Positions 3,323 through 61,508 of a DNA stretch of 64,000 bases are shown here, one piece after another. A model generated the notes under the pieces. It saw nothing but the letters and a program-made list of their open reading frames with translations. It was not told where the DNA came from and did no database searches. The position numbers and the translations under genes were made by a program. The stretch comes from a virus, in IMG/VR virus record IMGVR_UViG_3300010373_000001, positions 32,001-96,000 of that record, one strand, 5' to 3'. Position 1 is the stretch's first letter. Every line of letters begins with the position of its first letter.

Positions 3323-4098
3323 CTGCCAGACCTTCCTGAGTTTGTAGTAGGGGGTGTTACGCCTGGATGAAGAACAGGACCACCACCGGGCCTAGGATTA
3401 GTGACAGGACCACTGCCGAATCCTTTACCTGGATCTGCTGTCTGTTCTTTCGGCGGAAGCATGGTGAAGGAAATATCCATAACACATCTCATGGGAATCA
3501 TCTTCTGGGTGAAGTGCGTAACAGTCACGTCCCACTCAGAAACATAACCAAAGTAAGCAAGTACCGCACCATCACCGAAATAAACGTAAGCCGGGATAAG
3601 CTGCATGATTCCCTGATGTCCAGCAAAACTTGATGAACTGATAGTGTTGGTTACTTTACCACTGGTTGTGTATCCCATAGTCATGCCAGTGAACTGCTGC
3701 ATTGCAAAGATGTCAGCCATCACGCCAACTACTGAAGGATCGCTAGTGCTGCTCCCATTCTTAGCTGTTCCGTTAGCTGTGTACGATCCCCACAGTTCAT
3801 AGGTTCTATCGTAGAGCAGTGACCATGATACAGTCTGGCTCAGCGGAACCCTTAGGTCTGATGTATCTCCCGGCACGGGGAACTGCAATGTTGCCCCGAA
3901 GTTTTGGTTGATAGAGTAGCTTGCCTCTACTGTTGCCGGATTATACAGGAAGTTAACTCTAGCCTTGCCGCCGAGATTAGGATTAGATGATTCCCAGACC
4001 ATCGTGCCTCTCTTGAGCTTGCCAAACTCTCTTCCCTCAAGAGGGAACTGAAGAGTCTTGATCCTGTCATCAAAATCCGGCTGAATATAAACCGTCAT
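3319..4098 (-). CDS. Tail tube initiator-like protein
   Basis: FLYNP, L.YDRT and V..THFT..MIPMRC motifs; directly after tape measure. Confidence 0.6.
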   Translation of the reverse strand: MTVYIQPDFDDRIKTLQFPLEGREFGKLKRGTMVWESSNPNLGGKARVNFLYNPATVEASYSINQNFGATLQFPVPGDTSDLRVPLSQTVSWSLLYDRTYELWGSYTANGTAKNGSSTSDPSVVGVMADIFAMQQFTGMTMGYTTSGKVTNTISSSSFAGHQGIMQLIPAYVYFGDGAVLAYFGYVSEWDVTVTHFTQKMIPMRCVMDISFTMLPPKEQTADPGKGFGSGPVTNPRPGGGPVLHPGVTPPTTNSGRSGR

Positions 4099-10495: not shown

Positions 10496-11227
10496 TTATT
10501 CCTCAAAATTTAGCTGAGCGACACTCCACTCAATCGGGACACCAACACTGAGAAGAGTTTTGCTCTCGATAAGATGATTGGCGGTGATATCGGTAGTGCT
10601 TGAGTATTCACTCAGATCAACATTAATCTCCTTGACAGGAGGGTATGTATATATTGTGGGCAGAAGCTCAGAGAAAACCCTGACCTTATAGTCCACCCAG
10701 AATATTCTTTTTCCGTTGTTGTCAGTTCCGGACCTTAGATCGGGACCGCCAATTAGTTGCATCGTTCTCTTTGTCCCGTCTTGCGGGATGTCAAGGAATC
10801 CGTATTTAGGATGAAGTCGTTCGTATTGTGCTAGTGCGGAAACCAACGGAATAGTATGCTCGTGCATGAAACGCGAGTAAACTGTGACCTGATAGTCGAA
10901 GTTGTACGGTATCGGGAAGTACGAGTAGTACGGACCAGCTAACGGGTCGAATGTAGTAGTGTCAGGACCAGTGTCCTTCCACCATGGAGCAAAGCCTTCC
11001 GGCGCATAAGGGAGAGTAGTGAAGCCATCATGCATTCTCTCTGGCGCTGGATACCATCCCTGGTGAGTAATAATAACTATAGGGAAAGTAAGATCAGCTA
11101 CTTCTGATTCGGGCAGCCTGAAGCGGACAGGCACGGGCCTGCCGCTTACAGGAGAATTTGCGTCAAAAACTCTTAGCCCCTGAAGCTTGAGCTTCAGTGC
11201 GCCATCTTCATTAAGAAGCCAGGGCAT
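10496..11227 (-). CDS. Putative tail completion/terminator protein
   Basis: Start reassigned to MPWLLNED (GGAG upstream); lies between neck genes and sheath. Confidence 0.5.
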   Translation of the reverse strand: MPWLLNEDGALKLKLQGLRVFDANSPVSGRPVPVRFRLPESEVADLTFPIVIITHQGWYPAPERMHDGFTTLPYAPEGFAPWWKDTGPDTTTFDPLAGPYYSYFPIPYNFDYQVTVYSRFMHEHTIPLVSALAQYERLHPKYGFLDIPQDGTKRTMQLIGGPDLRSGTDNNGKRIFWVDYKVRVFSELLPTIYTYPPVKEINVDLSEYSSTTDITANHLIESKTLLSVGVPIEWSVAQLNFEE

Positions 11228-38962: not shown

Positions 38963-38991
38963 ATCATACCAGCCCAGCCCCTTGATGTCAA
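38963..38991 (-). promoter_or_regulatory. Sigma70-type promoter
   Basis: TTGACA-N17-TATGAT with upstream AAAAGTTTT box. Confidence 0.75.
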
Positions 38992-41249: not shown

Positions 41250-41278
41250 ACCCTACCACAAGGGGCCACTCATGTCAA
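41250..41278 (-). promoter_or_regulatory. Sigma70-type promoter
   Basis: TTGACA-N17-TAGGGT. Confidence 0.6.
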
Positions 41279-41285
41279 TAGTTCC

Positions 41286-41330
41286 GGAAAAGAAAAAAGA
41301 GACGGTTATGCCGTCTCTTTTTTCTTTTCC
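41286..41330 (-). terminator. Intrinsic terminator after Ro60 gene
   Basis: Perfect 20-bp inverted repeat with U-tracts on both strands. Confidence 0.8.
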
Positions 41331-41345
41331 CCCGGCCTTACGTGC

Positions 41346-42974
41346 TCACTTCTCCCACGGCCATGCGGCACTATGAGAACGCTCGATAAGATCCATCATC
41401 TTGAACGCGCTATCAGTCAGACCAGCCAACTGATGCCTCCTGCCATTTCCGCTAGGAATGTCTCCCTGAGCGTACCCTGACAGATCGAAAGCGTATAGGT
41501 AAGTGCTTTCGGGAACAGAGTCACTTACGTTACCTCCGTAACCGTACCCACCATAGCTACGGCTTCCCATTGACTGCATGTCAGTGAATACCACTGCCCT
41601 CTTGGTAGATGGGCTAGTAGTAGTTCTGATTGATTCAGCAGTGTTGGTGCCGTGGCCAACCGCACCGATCATACGGTTAACCTTCTCAATCTGCCTTAGC
41701 AGTGAGCCGCCACGCTCTACCTTTACTTCCCTTACGTTGTCAGCGAAGATGAACAGTCTGCTGTCCGGGTTTCTCATTGCCGTAGCAATACCGAACAACG
41801 CCCCTGCTTCTGCTCTTCTGATGCTGCTCTTGTTAGACATACCCGTATCCATTGACGCCGAAGTGTCAACGTATACGTCAGTTCTGCCGTTAAGCAGCGG
41901 AATGTTTCCTACTGACAGTGTTAGGGCTTCCTCAAGAGAGTGAGCCCATGCTGTGCTGGAAGCATTCTTGTAAGCTGACCAGTAGCGGAATGGGAACTGC
42001 CTGCCCCTAGCAACAATCTCAGGGTTGCACAGATCAGCCTGTACCTTAGCAATAGTTGCCTTAGATACACCAGCCTCCTGCATGTTCCTCAGGTTTCTCA
42101 GCATAGCCATGTGGCCAACTGATCCGCCCATGATAAGAGCATCCCACAGCTTACCCTTGTCCAGCTTAGAACCGGCAAGAGATAGCGCATCTTCCCACGT
42201 CATACCCGCAAACTTCAGGGATGAAGGATCAAGCAGAACGCTAGGATCACTCGCAGCCTGAGCGCGAAGATCAGCGTTGAACCTGATCATAGGAAGGTTA
42301 GACAAATCGAAGTCTGCCTCGTTTCCGTAACGACGGGTCATAGCGTAACGGTACAGATCACTCTGACTATCCACGCCAAAGGTTCTTGGGTGAGTCATCT
42401 GAATAACGTCACCGAAACGCCACCCCTTAGAAGAGGTGTCGTACTTAAGAAGAGAGTACTCGTTGAACAGCCTGTTAGCTGCGTCAGCAAGACCTCTCTT
42501 AACAGCAGAAGGAATAGTCCTGCCGAACTTCTCAGTCCAGTAGGCAGCCAATTCCCCCGGCTCGTCTGCACGCTGGGGAACAGCACTGATAAACAGCCTG
42601 TTCATACCCTTCTCGCCGCGCTCAATAGAACCATCTTCAACACCAGCCGCTAGTCTTGCGTGTACAGCATGAGCCGCACCCATAAGAGAAGCAGTTCTGA
42701 TGTTACCTTCCTGACGTAGCCACCTTAGGAAACTCAGCAGCCATGCAGGATCAGTGATAGCAATCTGCTCAACTAGAGCAGTAAATCTCTTGTCGCGGGA
42801 CTTACCACTCTCGTAGAAAGTATCTTCTCCCGCGAACATGTTAACGCCAAGGCGGAACAGTTCACCATAGGCGTCATTGACATAACCAGTCCCGCCCTCA
42901 TAAGTAACCGCAGGGCCAACCGTCGTAATTGGTGACGTAGCCGTAACGATCTTCTTGGTGTTCAGTCTTGACAT
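41346..42974 (-). CDS. rsr: Ro60/Rsr ortholog (TROVE domain plus vWA domain), 542 aa
   Basis: DTFYE, R..GNIR, QRADE, DVI.M.HP, TWE, MAMLRNLRN, QFPFRY..AY, MIDAS DTSASM...GT...FTD.Q; start at MSRLN with GGAGG RBS. Confidence 0.92.
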   Translation of the reverse strand: MSRLNTKKIVTATSPITTVGPAVTYEGGTGYVNDAYGELFRLGVNMFAGEDTFYESGKSRDKRFTALVEQIAITDPAWLLSFLRWLRQEGNIRTASLMGAAHAVHARLAAGVEDGSIERGEKGMNRLFISAVPQRADEPGELAAYWTEKFGRTIPSAVKRGLADAANRLFNEYSLLKYDTSSKGWRFGDVIQMTHPRTFGVDSQSDLYRYAMTRRYGNEADFDLSNLPMIRFNADLRAQAASDPSVLLDPSSLKFAGMTWEDALSLAGSKLDKGKLWDALIMGGSVGHMAMLRNLRNMQEAGVSKATIAKVQADLCNPEIVARGRQFPFRYWSAYKNASSTAWAHSLEEALTLSVGNIPLLNGRTDVYVDTSASMDTGMSNKSSIRRAEAGALFGIATAMRNPDSRLFIFADNVREVKVERGGSLLRQIEKVNRMIGAVGHGTNTAESIRTTTSPSTKRAVVFTDMQSMGSRSYGGYGYGGNVSDSVPESTYLYAFDLSGYAQGDIPSGNGRRHQLAGLTDSAFKMMDLIERSHSAAWPWEK

Positions 42975-43065
42975 TGTTACCTCCATAGATAACTGAAGCC
43001 ACTGTCTGAGCAGCTTCATTGACAATCTGGTCACATAAAACTGCCACATTCAGTGGCTTGAAAGG

Positions 43066-43146
43066 ACCAGAGAAATAATCGAATACAGTATCTTGTGTTA
43101 TTTGATAGTTGTAAATAGTGAAGTAACTGTATTCTTCGCATCTGGT
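43066..43146 (-). ncRNA. Y-RNA-like scaffold copy 1 (short A/U-rich insert)
   Basis: accAGA-TGCGAA-GAATACAG-TTACTTC...CTGTATTC-GATTATTTC-TCTggt. Confidence 0.75.
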
Positions 43147-43165
43147 ATAAATATTTAAATGTAGA

Positions 43166-43294
43166 GCCTGAGAAAAAATTTAGCGGCCGGAAATGAGATG
43201 TTATCTCATGCGGGCTCCACGCCCAGCATCGCCGTGATTGGTGGCGATGAATAGAATCGAACTATTGAAGTATCCGTTTGCATTCACTTCAGGC
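43166..43294 (-). ncRNA. Y-RNA-like copy 2 with tRNA permuted at the variable loop
   Basis: Scaffold enclosing T arm, catcgcc-A-CCA-atcac-ggcgatg acceptor, D arm, anticodon arm atgag-ATAACAT-ctcat. Confidence 0.75.
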
Positions 43295-43303
43295 AAACTT
43301 TGA

Positions 43304-43445
43304 TGGCTTAGAGAAAAAGTCGGAGTCAGAAATTTTTAGCGCTCTGCCAACTGAGCTATACCCCGGTGTTGTCGGGGCAACAGGATTCGAACCTGTGACC
43401 TCTCGTTCCCAATACGAAGTAACTGTTTCCTGCACTTCTAAGCCA
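43304..43445 (-). ncRNA. Y-RNA-like copy 3 with tRNA-Pro(TGG) permuted at the D/anticodon junction
   Basis: ttcgt-ATTGGGA-acgag, aggtc, T arm, tgccccg-a-caacac-cggggta, D arm gctc-agttggca-gagc. Confidence 0.8.
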
Positions 43446-43452
43446 AGATTTA

Positions 43453-43592
43453 TGTTCTGAGAAATAGTCTAGTACGGTGTCTTATGGGCAGGCACTCTAC
43501 CAATTGAGTTACAAGAGTCTATGACTCCAGACAGGATTCGAACCCGCAGCTTCCTGCTATACGGAAGTATCCGTGCTATTCACATCAGAACA
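43453..43592 (-). ncRNA. Y-RNA-like copy 4, YrlA-type topology (opened in the anticodon loop)
   Basis: gcagg, T arm, loop-closed acceptor, D arm actc-aattggta-gagt, cctgc inside the scaffold. Confidence 0.8.
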
Positions 43593-43599
43593 AAACTAG

Positions 43600-43708
43600 T
43601 ATCAGAGGAAAAGTCGAAAACGGAAAAGGCACCAGCCCATATACCAGGGAATCGAACCCTTGGTACTCGATTGTTGGAGAGAAGTAACCGTTCTCTTCAC
43701 ATCTGATA
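43600..43708 (-). ncRNA. Y-RNA-like copy 5 with T-loop hairpin insert
   Basis: Scaffold GAGAACGG/CCGTTTTC; insert taccaaggg-TTCGATT-ccctggta. Confidence 0.72.
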
Positions 43709-43711
43709 TAG

Positions 43712-43783
43712 AGACACCTACTGGATTCGAACCAGCGTAACAGGTTTTGCAGACCCGTACCTAAACCACTCGGTCAAGGTGCC
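43712..43783 (-). tRNA. tRNA-Cys(GCA)
   Basis: Loop CTGCAAA, U73. Confidence 0.92.
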
Positions 43784-43791
43784 GTAAAGAG

Positions 43792-43943
43792 TGTGCTAGA
43801 GGAAAGCTAAAGAGAGTGGAATATCTATTTCATTTCACTACCGGCTGTTGCCAGCCGACTTGGACTCGAACCAAGAATTATTAATTTACAGTTAATTGTG
43901 TTTACCTTTTAAGAAGTAACCCTCAACAAACACTTCTAGCACA
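43792..43943 (-). ncRNA. Y-RNA-like copy 6 with GTA-anticodon tRNA permuted in the D loop
   Basis: ggtaaa-cac, attaa-CTGTAAA-ttaat, T arm, tcggctg-GCAA-cagccgg, ta-gtg. Confidence 0.75.
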
Positions 43944-43956
43944 TTCAGTTATATGC

Positions 43957-44070
43957 CCAGAGGAACAAACTTGATCAGGGAAATTTCGACCTCCGGGCTA
44001 TGAACCCGGCGCTCTATCTGAGCTAATGCGCAAATGCTGCGTATGAAGTACCTGTTCAATTCACTTCTGG
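43957..44070 (-). ncRNA. Y-RNA-like copy 7 with CAT-anticodon tRNA permuted in the T loop
   Basis: acttc, atacgca-gcatt-tgcgcat, gctc-agata-gagc, ccggg-TTCATAG-cccgg, aggtc, gaaat. Confidence 0.75.
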
Positions 44071-44076
44071 AACTAG

Positions 44077-44149
44077 TAGTCAGTCTGAGATTCGAACTCA
44101 GGAACCCTAGCTTATGAGACTAGTGCCCTATGCCTCTGGCTTACCGACT
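44077..44149 (-). tRNA. tRNA-Met/Ile2(CAT), elongator-type
   Basis: Loop CTCATAA. Confidence 0.85.
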
Positions 44150-44153
44150 TTAT

Positions 44154-44376
44154 ATGGCTAGTTTCCCTCCATAGCCGGGGAGTGATAGAAGGGGCTGTCT
44201 GCCCTTAATCCGGAGAACAGAGTTGACATTGTATCCGGAAACTACGTAATGGCGCTACCCATATCTAATCTCAGAGTGGCCCCTGACTGTTATCCTTTAT
44301 CCCTCACCAGTTGGCCTTGGAAACAAAGGGCACTAGATTTACGTATACTTTATGGCCCAGCCTGTTCTGTAGCCAT
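44154..44376 (-). ncRNA. Candidate ~220-nt structured RNA inside the Y array
   Basis: Terminal atggcta/tagccat stem plus several long-range complementarities; no credible ORF. Confidence 0.45.
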
Positions 44377-44467
44377 TATTCAGTCACTATCTACAACTCT
44401 CCGTCGAGAGTTGTTAGTGATGGTAACAGTTCTGACACTGTTACCACCTTGGACGGACCAACAATTG

Positions 44468-44539
44468 TCCAGAGGAAATGCCGGTATTAGTTTACGTGTC
44501 CGTCCTGGCGTTGAAGTAACTAAAACCTTCACATCTGGA
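44468..44539 (-). ncRNA. Y-RNA-like scaffold copy 8 (minimal insert)
   Basis: tccAGA-TGTGAA-GGTTTTAG-TTACTTC...CTAATACC-GGCATTTCC-TCTgga. Confidence 0.72.
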
Positions 44540-44545
44540 ACTTAG

Positions 44546-44619
44546 TTGCGGAGACAGGATTTGAACCTGTGACCTCTGGGTTATGAGCCCAACGAGCTAC
44601 CGAACTGCTCCACTCCGCG
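44546..44619 (-). tRNA. tRNA-fMet(CAT), initiator
   Basis: C1:A72 mismatch, GGG/CCC anticodon stem. Confidence 0.93.
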
Positions 44620-44629
44620 TTGAATTAGA

Positions 44630-44698
44630 ATCAGAGAAATAATCGTTAAGGGTATTTTTTTCTGCTTAAAAGAAGTATCCCGTAACTGCGCTTCTGAT
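44630..44698 (-). ncRNA. Y-RNA-like scaffold copy 9 (minimal insert)
   Basis: atcAGA-AGCGCA-GTTACGGG-ATACTTC...CCCTTAAC-GATTATTTC-TCTgat. Confidence 0.72.
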
Positions 44699-44703
44699 CA
44701 CAG

Positions 44704-44777
44704 TACTCCTAGAGGGATTCGAACCCTACGCTGCCACCTTGAAAGGGAGGTGTCCTTGGCCGCTAGACGATAGGAGC
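44704..44777 (-). tRNA. tRNA-Glu(TTC)
   Basis: Loop CTTTCAA. Confidence 0.9.
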
Positions 44778-44835
44778 TTATTAGCCGGGCCGAGATTTTC
44801 ATGGGCAAACCAACGTGTCTCGGCCCGACTCTTAC

Positions 44836-44864
44836 AGAGTACCACAGGGGAGCGTCCCTGTCAA
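44836..44864 (-). promoter_or_regulatory. Sigma70-type promoter driving the tRNA/Y-RNA/Ro60 unit
   Basis: TTGACA-N17-TACTCT. Confidence 0.7.
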
Positions 44865-46026: not shown

Positions 46027-47028
46027 TTAAGCGGTAAGGATCAGCGCTCTGGTCCCTGCAATCAGTTTCCTGTTAGGTGCGGTGCTTTCCACAAAGATTG
46101 TGTAAGGATAGTTCTCAGGGATTACCTTTACAGATTCGTCGTCTGGCAAACCCAGGACTCGCCTGATTTCCCTGTACCCGATATACACACGGCCATCGAA
46201 CAGAATAGCAATTCTCTTCTGAGACTGAATTATCTCAGGCTTGCTTAGCTGGTAGAACACCATGCCTACATGGAATGGCAGACCGTTATCTCTTACGAAA
46301 TCATCTGCTCTTGAGTCTGATAGCACGCCTCTTAGCGCGAAATCCTGCGGCATAAGAGGTGTCATTGTGCTGAGGATGTCATCAGGAGTAAGGGTGTTCA
46401 GCTTGAACAGCGACCTTGAACCGCGAATACCAACCTTACGGTTCTGCATAAAGGTTTCAGTTGTGCGGCGGATAGTTTCGCCCGCCTCAGCAATACCCTT
46501 AACTGAAGTAGCATCCCAGACTTCTACGTTGTCTGCCGGGAAACCAAATCTCTTAGCCTCAAACTTGCCATCCTGGTTCGGCACAAACGCCGCAATAGTC
46601 CAGTGATCAGGCAAACCATCAATAGTGTTCTTCAGATCATATGATCTTGCGGCACTGTTATTCTCCTGACCATCGGTCAGTACGTAGATAAGAAATGCGT
46701 GCTCGCCGTACTTCTCAGGAGTCATCTTCAGGTCATTGATGGCAAGAAGCGTGGCATCAATAAGAGCAGTCTGGCTCATAACCCGGTAAAGGGATTTGAT
46801 ACTTGGCATTCTCAGCACATCTTTGTCATAGATCAGGCAGTAGATTTCTCTCCTGTTGCTGAACATATAGACTGTGACGCGAGTTTCCTGATCAAGATCC
46901 TTAGATCTTTGCGCAAGGTATGCAATCTGATTGTCAGCTACCTTGACTAATTCGGCCTCACGGCCTTTCATACTGAAACTGGCATCCAGTACCAGCACGA
47001 TATGATTGATAATGTTTGCTGGTTGCAA
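46027..47028 (-). CDS. vWA-domain protein
   Basis: LVLDASFSM, TALIDA, VLTDGQEN.S MIDAS motifs; TTG start with GGAGG. Confidence 0.85.
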   Translation of the reverse strand: MQPANIINHIVLVLDASFSMKGREAELVKVADNQIAYLAQRSKDLDQETRVTVYMFSNRREIYCLIYDKDVLRMPSIKSLYRVMSQTALIDATLLAINDLKMTPEKYGEHAFLIYVLTDGQENNSAARSYDLKNTIDGLPDHWTIAAFVPNQDGKFEAKRFGFPADNVEVWDATSVKGIAEAGETIRRTTETFMQNRKVGIRGSRSLFKLNTLTPDDILSTMTPLMPQDFALRGVLSDSRADDFVRDNGLPFHVGMVFYQLSKPEIIQSQKRIAILFDGRVYIGYREIRRVLGLPDDESVKVIPENYPYTIFVESTAPNRKLIAGTRALILTA

Positions 47029-48480: not shown

Positions 48481-48509
48481 AGCATACCACAGGGGACCGC
48501 CCCTGTCAA
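48481..48509 (-). promoter_or_regulatory. Sigma70-type promoter
   Basis: TTGACA-N17-TATGCT with upstream AAAAGTTTTT. Confidence 0.75.
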
Positions 48510-53655: not shown

Positions 53656-53684
53656 AGCTTAGCACGTCCGGGCCTGTCTGTCAA
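53656..53684 (-). promoter_or_regulatory. Sigma70-type promoter
   Basis: TTGACA-N17-TAAGCT. Confidence 0.7.
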
Positions 53685-61479: not shown

Positions 61480-61508
61480 TTGACAGCCCGAGCGGGCTGT
61501 GCTACCAT
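61480..61508 (+). promoter_or_regulatory. Rightward promoter of divergent pair
   Basis: TTGACA-N17-TACCAT. Confidence 0.7.

What the first reader, a model, noticed from the sequence alone, without database searches (positions are those of the whole stretch)
41286..44864. Phage Ro60 operon with a nine-copy array of Y-RNA-like scaffolds
Seen: a TTGACA-N17-TACTCT promoter reads through four tRNAs and nine copies of one RNA scaffold into a Ro60 (TROVE+vWA) gene, followed by a 20-bp terminator. The minus-strand consensus is outer stem-(A/U)GA-WGYGAA-8 bp stem-UACUUC-[insert]-8 bp stem-GAYUWUUYC-UC(U/A)-outer stem. Both stems change sequence between copies yet stay paired (GAATACAG/CTGTATTC, TAGCACGG/CCGTACTA, GAGAACGG/CCGTTTTC, GGTTTTAG/CTAATACC, GTTACGGG/CCCTTAAC), while the 6x9 internal loop and UACUUC stay nearly fixed. 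This pattern indicates selection on structure plus a protein-binding site. Established: bacterial Ro60/Rsr genes lie next to Y RNAs, which bind Ro60 through a terminal stem and carry an effector module. Inference: this is a modular RNP system in which one Ro60 is loaded with nine RNAs of constant handle and variable cargo. I do not know of such an expanded array being described.
Basis: partly seen in the sequence, partly recalled or inferred. Interest (0 to 1): 0.95.

Follow-up and report, generated by a model that had tools for sequence, protein, structure and literature searches.

The report
Nine Y-RNA genes beside phage Ro60
A 115-kb phage related to Streptomyces phage BRock carries, in one operon with four tRNAs and a Ro60 ring-protein gene, nine small RNA genes that share the Ro60-type Y-RNA "handle" but display different, mostly tRNA-like, inserts; this is more than twice the most I counted per locus (four) in 80 actinobacterial Ro60 loci.

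Summary
On the minus strand between 44699 and 43064 lie nine units. Each has an outer stem, a sequence-conserved internal loop (WGYGAA opposite GAYUWUUYC), an inner stem of about 8 bp, UACUUC, and a variable insert. They are interleaved with four tRNAs, preceded by a recurrent promoter motif, and followed by a Ro60 gene and a 20-bp terminator hairpin.

Both stems covary, in the nine copies and in 134 distinct relatives. A covariance model built from the nine copies finds exactly nine in the 115.6-kb genome. It also finds 211 matches in 80 other viral Ro60 loci and 157 in 80 actinobacterial Ro60 loci, all on the Ro60 strand and almost all just upstream.

These are Y RNAs of the bacterial YrlA/YrlB kind, so the kind is known. 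Two copies match Rfam YrlA below threshold; none reaches it. What appears new:
- The array size: nine here and in one relative, against at most four in the bacterial loci sampled.
- Individual cargo types and the tRNA/Y-RNA gene order are conserved across phages whose Ro60 is under 50% identical.
- Cargo topologies other than YrlA occur.

Ro60 binding and RNA accumulation were not tested. Cultured relatives BRock and Alone3 carry 4 and 5 unannotated copies. This scan has noted similar arrays on other phage DNA before.

The parts
44836..44864 (-). Promoter-like site TTGACA-N17-TACTCT with TGTGG before the -10
   Evidence: Sequence. The motif TTGACA-N13-GTGGTA occurs 6x in the window against 0.35 expected. 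The generic sigma-70 scan did not call it.
44703..44777 (-). tRNA-Glu(UUC); its 3' end is 3 nt from c1
   Evidence: ARAGORN; Rfam tRNA 47.7 bits
44628..44699 (-). Y RNA c1: handle plus a 19-nt unstructured insert (YrlB-like)
   Evidence: (62 bits)
44545..44619 (-). tRNA-Met(CAU), initiator-like (C1/A72 mismatch, three G-C pairs in the anticodon stem); 4 nt from c2
   Evidence: initiator features read from the sequence
44466..44540 (-). Y RNA c2: handle plus a 22-nt insert
   Evidence: (57.7 bits)
44179..44411 (-). manA-like structured RNA within the operon (below the Rfam threshold)
   Evidence: RF01745, 42.2 bits (cut-off 55.2), E 5e-9, whole model aligned
44076..44149 (-). tRNA-Met(CAU), second copy; 3 nt from c3
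43954..44072 (-). Y RNA c3: cargo is a hairpin, a D arm and an anticodon-like arm (5-bp stem with three G-C pairs, loop UUCAUAG), in normal tRNA order and without a T arm
   Evidence: Orthologues: L014 5489 (z 11) and L007 5769 (z 5.5).
43793..43942 (-). Y RNA c4: cargo is a T arm plus a GNRA-capped acceptor-like hairpin; weak inner stem
   Evidence: (57.8 bits). Orthologues: L007 5942 (z 11.8) and L014 5855 (z 5.8).
43711..43783 (-). tRNA-Cys(GCA); 2 nt from c5
43599..43708 (-). Y RNA c5: cargo is a T arm plus a short hairpin
   Evidence: (95 bits). Orthologue: L007 6638 (z 11).
43453..43591 (-). Y RNA c6: YrlA-type permuted tRNA mimic (T arm, closed acceptor-like hairpin, D arm)
   Evidence: Rfam YrlA 31.2 bits, model positions 1-114; R1 77.9 bits
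43305..43444 (-). Y RNA c7: YrlA-type permuted tRNA mimic with a canonical D arm; its variable/T region resembles the phage initiator tRNA
   Evidence: Rfam YrlA 32 bits; local alignment to tRNA-Met(1)
43164..43295 (-). Y RNA c8: four hairpins (T arm; 7-bp acceptor-like stem whose 3' strand is followed by ACCA; D-like hairpin; 7-bp hairpin). The handle sits at the variable-arm position.
   Evidence: (47.9 bits). The orthologue L007 6759 (z 6) has a fully compensated acceptor-like stem and a CUCAUAA loop.
43064..43147 (-). Y RNA c9: handle plus a 31-nt unstructured insert
   Evidence: (69.7 bits)
41346..42974 (-). Ro60 (TROVE ring plus vWA domain with a DxSxS MIDAS motif), 542 aa
41286..41330 (-). 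Terminator hairpin: 20-bp stem, 5-nt loop, with A and U runs inside the stem
   Evidence: The next copy of the promoter motif starts at 41278.

Best explanation
This is a phage operon that makes one Ro60 protein and nine different Y RNAs of the bacterial YrlA/YrlB kind.

Proposed mechanism:
- A phage promoter drives one long transcript: tRNA-Glu, c1, tRNA-fMet, c2, manA-like RNA, tRNA-Met, c3, c4, tRNA-Cys, c5-c9, Ro60, terminator.
- tRNA processing (RNase P at tRNA 5' ends, 3' trimming 2-4 nt before four of the Y RNAs) and cleavage in the 7-16-nt A/U-rich spacers release the small RNAs (inferred).
- Each RNA folds so that its ends form the constant handle: outer stem, a sequence-conserved internal loop carrying the GYGAA/CGAA-type motif, and an inner stem. 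By homology this handle is the Ro60 docking site (inferred from the family, not shown here).
- The variable module projects from the handle. It is a full YrlA-type tRNA mimic in c6 and c7, a partial or differently attached tRNA mimic in c3, c4, c5 and c8, and a short single-stranded insert in c1, c2 and c9.
- As with Rsr-Y RNA-PNPase in Deinococcus and phiLo Ro60-Yrl-PNPase, the modules most likely tether or gate Ro60 towards different host RNA enzymes or tRNA-binding proteins. One protein would thus yield a set of nine specialised RNPs during infection (inferred).
For: Shown here:
- Nine units share the handle, with covarying stems.
- 134 distinct relatives keep 93% of cells paired, against at most 52% when slid, and 14/15 pairs change on both sides. 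This alignment is fitted to the model, so it leans towards the structure.
- The loop and UACUUC are conserved in sequence, with no covariation across the loop. That pattern fits a protein-contact site.
- Model R1 finds exactly 9 copies in the whole 115.6-kb genome.
- R1 finds 211 hits in 80 viral Ro60 loci, all on the Ro60 strand. 116 of the 128 best hits end within 2.5 kb upstream of Ro60.
- R1 finds 157 hits in 80 actinobacterial Ro60 loci, all on the Ro60 strand.
- c6 and c7 align to Rfam YrlA.
- The Ro60 fold is confirmed.
- Cargo types c3, c4, c5 and c8 have specific orthologues, and the order Glu-Y-Met-Y-(Met)-Y-Y-Cys-Y is kept in L007, L014 and L002, whose Ro60 is only 46-49% identical. 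The members are therefore old and individually maintained.

From papers:
- YrlA and YrlB lie upstream of rsr, are cut from one precursor and bind Rsr (PMC4201824).
- Phage phiLo Ro60 binds two Yrl RNAs and host PNPase (PMC12135203).
Against: - No expression, processing or binding data could be obtained.
- No copy reaches the Rfam YrlA cut-off (best 32 bits against 69).
- The 5' motif is mostly GUGAA here rather than the published GNCGAA.
- c4 and c8 have weak inner stems.
- Three copies have no recognisable effector structure.
- The partners of the modules are unknown, and the phage encodes no RtcB or CCA-adding enzyme.
Confidence: 0.8

Rival explanations
1. The handles are processing or chaperoning cassettes for their cargo rather than Ro60 adaptors. 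The cargo (a tRNA or tRNA fragment) would be the product: it is held by the handle, perhaps with Ro60 as a folding chaperone, and then excised by RNase P/Z.
For: In relatives a complete tRNA sits inside a handle. L014 6175-6248 is a tRNA-Tyr at 63 bits, and L007 6198-6270 is a tRNA with a UUA anticodon. 7 of 137 handle RNAs contain a whole ARAGORN tRNA. c8 encodes ACCA after its acceptor-like 3' strand. M. smegmatis YrlA is cut by RNase P and receives CCA (PMC4201824).
Against: In this window no cargo is a complete tRNA. Three cargos are short and unstructured, and the YrlA-type cargos are circularly permuted with closed acceptor stems, so excision would not yield a tRNA. The handle, not the cargo, is the most conserved part.
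Confidence: 0.12
2. The repeats are cis-acting Ro60-binding sites in the leader of the Ro60 mRNA that autoregulate its translation or stability, not separate RNAs.
For: All copies lie upstream of Ro60 on the same transcript. Two small hairpins lie between c9 and the start codon.
Against: tRNAs interleaved 2-4 nt from the units imply cleavage of the transcript. In L073 and L074 the arrays lie downstream of Ro60. The cargo is individually conserved. YrlA and YrlB are known to be released RNAs (PMC4201824).
Confidence: 0.04
3. The units are decaying tRNA pseudogenes or chance repeats in a tRNA-rich region.
For: T-arm and D-arm fragments are present, and weak tRNA hits overlap some units.
Against: The handle shows covariation, is strictly linked to Ro60 in 160 other loci, and is absent from the rest of the tRNA region, which holds 29 more tRNAs.
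Confidence: 0.01

Closest known systems
Bacterial Rsr (Ro60) with YrlA/YrlB Y RNAs (Salmonella, Mycobacterium smegmatis; Chen et al. 2014, PMC4201824; Rfam RF02553)
   Same: The RNA genes lie directly upstream of Ro60 on the same strand and are cut from one precursor. The ends pair into a stem with a CGAA-type motif on the 5' strand. A YUAY-like element (here UACUUC) precedes a permuted tRNA-like domain in c6 and c7. Shorter YrlB-like partners occur alongside. The same handle model hits 75 of 80 actinobacterial Ro60 loci.
   Different: There are nine RNAs instead of the two described per locus (at most four in my sample of bacterial loci). tRNA genes are interleaved. Some cargo topologies are not YrlA: a D arm plus anticodon-like arm, or four arms with the handle at the variable-arm position. 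No copy reaches the Rfam cut-off.
Thermus phage phiLo Ro60 with Yrl1/Yrl2 (PMC12135203; PDB 9KOP, 9L5Y)
   Same: A phage-encoded Ro60 with Y-RNA-like genes upstream. It is the best sequence and fold match in the PDB. The RNAs have a stem-bulge-stem form with a CGAA motif.
   Different: phiLo has two RNAs, no tRNA-like cargo is reported, and the protein is only about 22% identical.
Deinococcus radiodurans Rsr-Yrn1-PNPase (RYPER)
   Same: The working model is the same: the Y RNA handle binds Ro60 and the other module tethers a partner enzyme.
   Different: The partner of these nine modules is unknown. The T/D arm orientation in Yrn1 differs (PMC4201824).
Streptomyces phages BRock, Alone3, GiJojo, LuckySocke, pSt2308 (cultured relatives)
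   Same: The major capsid protein is 72% identical. All have a 'Ro-like RNA binding protein' inside a tRNA cluster. The same handle RNAs lie directly upstream: 4 in BRock and 5 in Alone3.
   Different: They have fewer copies. In those records the RNAs are unannotated, and in Alone3 one is annotated as tRNA-Ser(gct).
Metazoan Y RNA families (four human Y RNAs; many nematode stem-bulge RNAs) - recalled from memory
   Same: Several Y RNA paralogues share the Ro60-binding stem and differ in the loop module.
   Different: They are eukaryotic, separately transcribed by RNA polymerase III, and have no tRNA-like cargo.

Membership tests
Ro60 / TROVE protein | TROVE domain detectable by sequence | tested here: met
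   Pfam PF05731, E 3.4e-17, 63 bits against a cut-off of 23; phmmer to phiLo Ro60, E 3e-22
Ro60 / TROVE protein | Ring of HEAT-like helices closed by a vWA domain | tested here: met
   AlphaFold model pLDDT 87.5, pTM 0.86. Foldseek gives full-length matches to 1YVP, 2I91 and 9NEP (TM 0.72-0.78), 9KOP and 2NVO.
Ro60 / TROVE protein | MIDAS motif DxSxS in the vWA domain | tested here: met
   D370, S372 and S374 are invariant in 30 homologues; read as D-T-S-A-S in the sequence
Bacterial Y RNA (YrlA/YrlB type) | Encoded within a few kb of Ro60 on the same strand | tested here: met
   All nine lie 90-1725 nt upstream on the same strand. The same holds for 211 viral and 157 bacterial matches, all on the Ro60 strand.
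Bacterial Y RNA (YrlA/YrlB type) | 5' and 3' ends pair into a stem, supported by covariation | tested here: met
Bacterial Y RNA (YrlA/YrlB type) | GNCGAAN0-1G motif near the 5' end (PMC4201824) | tested here: inconclusive
   The family consensus here is UGCG(C/A)A. The window copies read WGYGAA, mostly with U in place of C. The GAA core and the position are kept, but the match is not exact.
YrlA (Rfam RF02553) | Score at or above the curated cut-off of 69 bits | tested here: not met
   Best scores are 32.0 (c7) and 31.2 (c6); the other seven give no match. Related viral and bacterial loci also give no match at gathering score.
YrlA (Rfam RF02553) | Permuted tRNA-like domain: T arm, closed acceptor-like hairpin, D arm | tested here: met
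   Met for c6 and c7 (alignments). Partly met for c4, c5 and c8. Absent in c1, c2, c3 and c9. 65 of 137 family members have a T arm followed by a D arm.
Bacterial Y RNA (YrlA/YrlB type) | Bound by Ro60 and accumulates as a discrete small RNA | not testable with these tools

The most novel reading that the evidence does not exclude
The array is a phage-encoded library of Ro60-anchored tRNA mimics. Each conserved member presents a different face of a tRNA: the T/acceptor/D corner, the D arm plus an initiator-like CAU anticodon arm, or a whole four-arm body. The members would capture or misdirect different host tRNA-recognising factors, for example anticodon nucleases of defence systems, tRNA-modifying enzymes, or PNPase. 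Ro60 would act as a multi-adaptor counter-defence or RNA-remodelling hub, working alongside the phage's 33 tRNAs.
Probability: 0.22. Interest if true: 0.8.

Novelty: new variant of a known kind. Interest (0 to 1): 0.6.

Why it matters
How bacterial and phage Ro60 chooses its partners is still poorly understood, and only one effector (PNPase) is established. A phage lineage that keeps up to nine distinct Y RNAs gives a natural panel for asking what the effector module does. The handle is constant, and each cargo is conserved across relatives whose Ro60 has diverged below 50% identity.

The same RNAs sit unannotated in cultured Streptomyces phages (BRock, Alone3), so the question is directly testable. 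The result also flags an annotation problem: tRNA finders call parts of these RNAs as tRNAs.

Tried and rejected
- A single-protein scan of viral contigs found nothing. The alignment-based scan worked.
- A megablast of the locus against cultured phages gave only a 43-nt tRNA-like match.
- Rfam at gathering score gave only tRNAs in the window and in 26 related loci.
- I tested whether the 6x9 internal loop hides covarying pairs. Mutual information is low (at most 0.20 bits), so it is conserved as sequence, not as a helix.
- I looked for RtcB and a CCA-adding enzyme in the phage genome and found neither.
- I looked for the manA-like RNA in relative L014 and did not find it at E 0.01 or below.
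- The idea that cargos derive from particular phage tRNAs rests only on short matches: c7 and c3 against the initiator-like tRNA-Met. I leave it as a lead.
- The idea that the CAU loop of c3 is conserved did not hold. The orthologues have UUCAUAC, a 6-nt loop CGCGGG, and CUCAAAA.
- My first promoter-motif search used the wrong spacer; it was corrected.


Full report
**What is in the sequence.** The window is bases 32001-96000 of a 115,610-bp viral record with direct terminal repeats. It encodes a tail sheath, portal, major head protein and large terminase, plus 33 tRNAs, all on the minus strand. Its major capsid protein is 72% identical to that of Streptomyces phage BRock and its relatives. 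These are 112-116-kb myoviruses that also carry a "Ro-like RNA binding protein" inside a tRNA cluster. The likely host is therefore an actinomycete; this is an inference.

**The operon.** Read on the minus strand from 44864, the region holds, in order:
- a TTGACA-N17-TACTCT site;
- tRNA-Glu, then unit c1;
- an initiator-like tRNA-Met, then c2;
- a 233-nt stretch that aligns end to end with the manA RNA model below threshold;
- a second tRNA-Met, then c3 and c4;
- tRNA-Cys, then c5 to c9;
- a 542-aa ORF preceded by GGAGG;
- a 20-bp hairpin (-32 kcal/mol, z -5.5).

The generic promoter scan did not call the promoter, because its -10 hexamer matches only 3 of 6 positions. However, the extended motif TTGACA-N13-GTGGTA occurs six times in the window against 0.35 expected. 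Five of these are on the minus strand in the tRNA region, and one lies directly after the terminator. It is therefore probably this phage's own promoter type.

**The nine units are real and structured.** TACTTC occurs 59 times in the window, but only nine occurrences have the GA-WGYGAA-N8 context, and all nine lie within 1.65 kb.
- 84% paired cells, against 30-49% when the 3' strand is slid;
- 12 of 16 pairs with changes on both sides;
- no shuffle of 500 reaching the covariation score.

UC(U/A)" is just the inner end of the outer stem. Several inner stems have one central mismatch, and c4 and c8 have weak inner stems.

**The protein is Ro60.**
- Pfam TROVE, E 3e-17.
- phmmer to the Thermus phage phiLo Ro60 structures, E 3e-22.
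- The DxSxS MIDAS motif is invariant in 30 homologues.
- An AlphaFold model (pLDDT 87.5) matches Xenopus and human Ro60, Deinococcus Rsr and phiLo Ro60 over its full length; no other fold comes close.

**Linkage to Ro60 elsewhere.** A covariance model built from the nine copies (R1) gives these results:

| Searched | Matches | Strand and position |
|---|---|---|
| Whole 115.6-kb phage genome | exactly 9 | all in the operon |
| 80 viral contigs with Ro60 homologues of 41-49% identity, 1.1 Mb, both strands | 211 | all on the Ro60 strand; 116 of the 128 best end within 2.5 kb upstream |
| 80 actinobacterial Ro60 loci | 157 | all on the Ro60 strand |

A crude regular expression for the 5' half gives 191 hits on the Ro60 strand and 2 on the other.

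On the 134 distinct best matches, 93% of cells pair, against at most 52% when slid, and 14 of 15 pairs change on both sides. That alignment is fitted to the model, so it leans towards the structure. By contrast, the internal loop and the following UACUUC are conserved as sequence. U, C, U, U and C are each present in 137 of 137 sequences, and no column pair across the loop covaries. Stems kept by compensation next to a loop kept by sequence is the pattern expected for a protein-binding site.

**What they are.** Chen et al. 2014 (PMC4201824) describe the following for bacterial YrlA/YrlB:
- the genes lie upstream of rsr on the same strand and are processed from one precursor;
- the paired ends carry a GNCGAAN0-1G motif thought to contact Rsr;
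- a conserved YUAY precedes a circularly permuted tRNA-like domain (T arm, closed acceptor-like stem, D arm).

The units here fit that description. The family loop consensus is UGCG(C/A)A; in this window it is mostly GUGAA. The Rfam alignment places the inner stem and AUACUU of c6 on the first stem and "AUGCU" of the YrlA model. Copies c6 and c7 contain the T / acceptor-like / D order.

Formal membership of Rfam RF02553 is not met, however. c6 and c7 score 31-32 bits against a cut-off of 69, and the other seven do not match. No related viral or actinobacterial locus that I scanned reaches the cut-off either. I therefore file these as Y RNAs of the YrlA/YrlB kind that the current Rfam model does not capture.

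**What goes beyond the literature I could read.**

*Copy number.* Published loci have two Y RNAs: YrlA/YrlB, Yrn1/Yrn2, and phiLo Yrl1/Yrl2 (PMC4201824, PMC12135203). A Listeria phage paper suspects up to three (PMC12282133). In my sample, bacterial loci have 1-4 copies. Viral loci mostly have 1-3, with a tail up to nine: this phage, L007 with nine and L014 with eight at E<1.

*The members are not recent duplicates.* Cargos c3, c4, c5 and c8 each have a specific orthologue in L007 and/or L014 (z 5.5-11.8 against shuffles), often with fully compensated stems. The gene order tRNA-Glu, Y, tRNA-Met, Y, (tRNA-Met), Y, Y, tRNA-Cys, Y is shared with L007, L014 and L002, although their Ro60 proteins are only 46-49% identical.

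*Cargo topology varies*:
- short unstructured inserts (c1, c2, c9);
- a T arm plus a hairpin (c4, c5);
- the YrlA type (c6, c7);
- a D arm plus an anticodon-like arm in normal tRNA order, with three G-C pairs and a CAU loop (c3);
- a four-hairpin form in which the handle emerges at the variable-arm position and the acceptor-like 3' strand is followed by ACCA (c8).

In relatives, a complete tRNA can sit inside a handle.

**How it most likely works.**
- Shown: the shared, covarying handle; its strict linkage to Ro60; the operon layout; the conserved cargo classes.
- Inferred from the family: Ro60 binds the handle, the transcript is cut into separate RNAs, and the cargo modules tether or gate Ro60 towards other factors, as Yrn1 does with PNPase and as phiLo Yrl RNAs do with host PNPase.

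Four of the nine units start 2-4 nt after a tRNA 3' end, and the same junction recurs in L007 and L014. tRNA 3' processing therefore probably sets those 5' ends. The others are separated by 7-16-nt A/U-rich spacers.

The handle consensus is shared with chromosomal actinobacterial Ro60 loci. Cross-talk between phage Y RNAs and a host Ro60 is therefore conceivable. The phage encodes no RtcB and no CCA-adding enzyme.

**Rivals.** The main alternative is that the handle serves the cargo, as a chaperoning or processing cassette for tRNA-like products. The handle-embedded complete tRNAs in relatives and the ACCA in c8 support it. Against it, in this window no cargo is a complete tRNA and three cargos are unstructured. 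Autoregulatory leader sites and tRNA debris are unlikely, for the reasons given under the rival explanations.

**Limits.**
- No expression or binding evidence could be obtained.
- The large alignments are model-fitted.
- Copy counts depend on E-value thresholds.

Earlier notes of this scan report similar handle-plus-cargo arrays (4-11 members) beside Ro60-like genes in other phages. They are AI notes and I did not test them, so they do not count as support. They do suggest the phenomenon is widespread.

**Verdict.** It is a known kind (phage Ro60 with Y RNAs) in an expanded, internally diversified and evolutionarily conserved array form, for which I found no published description.

Noticed in passing
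window 44179-44411 (-): A 233-nt stretch between c2 and the second tRNA-Met aligns over the whole manA RNA model (RF01745) at 42.2 bits, below the cut-off of 55.2, E 5e-9. The GUGACUGAAUAA core is conserved. I recall manA RNAs as being known from marine gammaproteobacteria and cyanophages; one in a BRock-like phage operon would be unusual. It was not found in relative L014.
   Followed up: partly
L082 (Streptomyces phage Alone3, OR725492.1) locus 3725-3869; record about 10916-11060: The feature annotated tRNA-Ser(gct) (locus 3729-3802) lies inside a handle RNA (R1 40.6 bits) and is not called as tRNA by Rfam at gathering score. It is probably a Y RNA cargo mis-annotated as a tRNA. BRock (L083 3397-3883) and Alone3 (L082 3243-3869) carry 4 and 5 unannotated handle RNAs upstream of their Ro-like gene.
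   Followed up: partly
L014 6147-6286 and L007 6175-6300: In two related 116-kb phage contigs, the handle RNA after tRNA-Cys encloses a complete tRNA. In L014 it is tRNA-Tyr(GUA), 63 bits. In L007 ARAGORN calls it 'tRNA-Stop', with a UUA anticodon loop (an ochre-suppressor-like form). This window has no counterpart of that member.
   Followed up: partly
window 38967-38991, 41254-41278, 44840-44864, 48485-48509, 53660-53684 (all -), 61480-61504 (+): The promoter-like motif TTGACA-N13-GTGGTA recurs, often with a G+C-rich palindromic spacer: 6 matches against 0.35 expected. It probably marks the phage's transcription units across the tRNA region.
   Followed up: partly
window 46027-47028 (-): A 333-aa ORF about 1.2 kb upstream of the operon promoter matches phrog_26613 (unknown function, E 1e-97) and weakly the vWA domain (Pfam VWA_2, E 9.5e-4, below cut-off). 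It is a possible second vWA protein near the Ro60 operon.
   Followed up: no
L084, L085 (Micromonosporaceae MAG; Catelliglobosispora koreensis): These 'bacterial' Ro60 loci have 15-25 tRNA genes packed in the 3 kb upstream of Ro60, like the phage operon. They may be prophages or phage contigs of this lineage inside bacterial assemblies.
   Followed up: no
window 42975-43063 (-): Two small hairpins lie between c9 and the Ro60 start codon (43057-43043, followed by AGUUUUAUGU; and 43018-42994). They could act as a partial terminator that sets the RNA-to-protein ratio, but the count of terminator-like sites in the region is at chance level.
   Followed up: no
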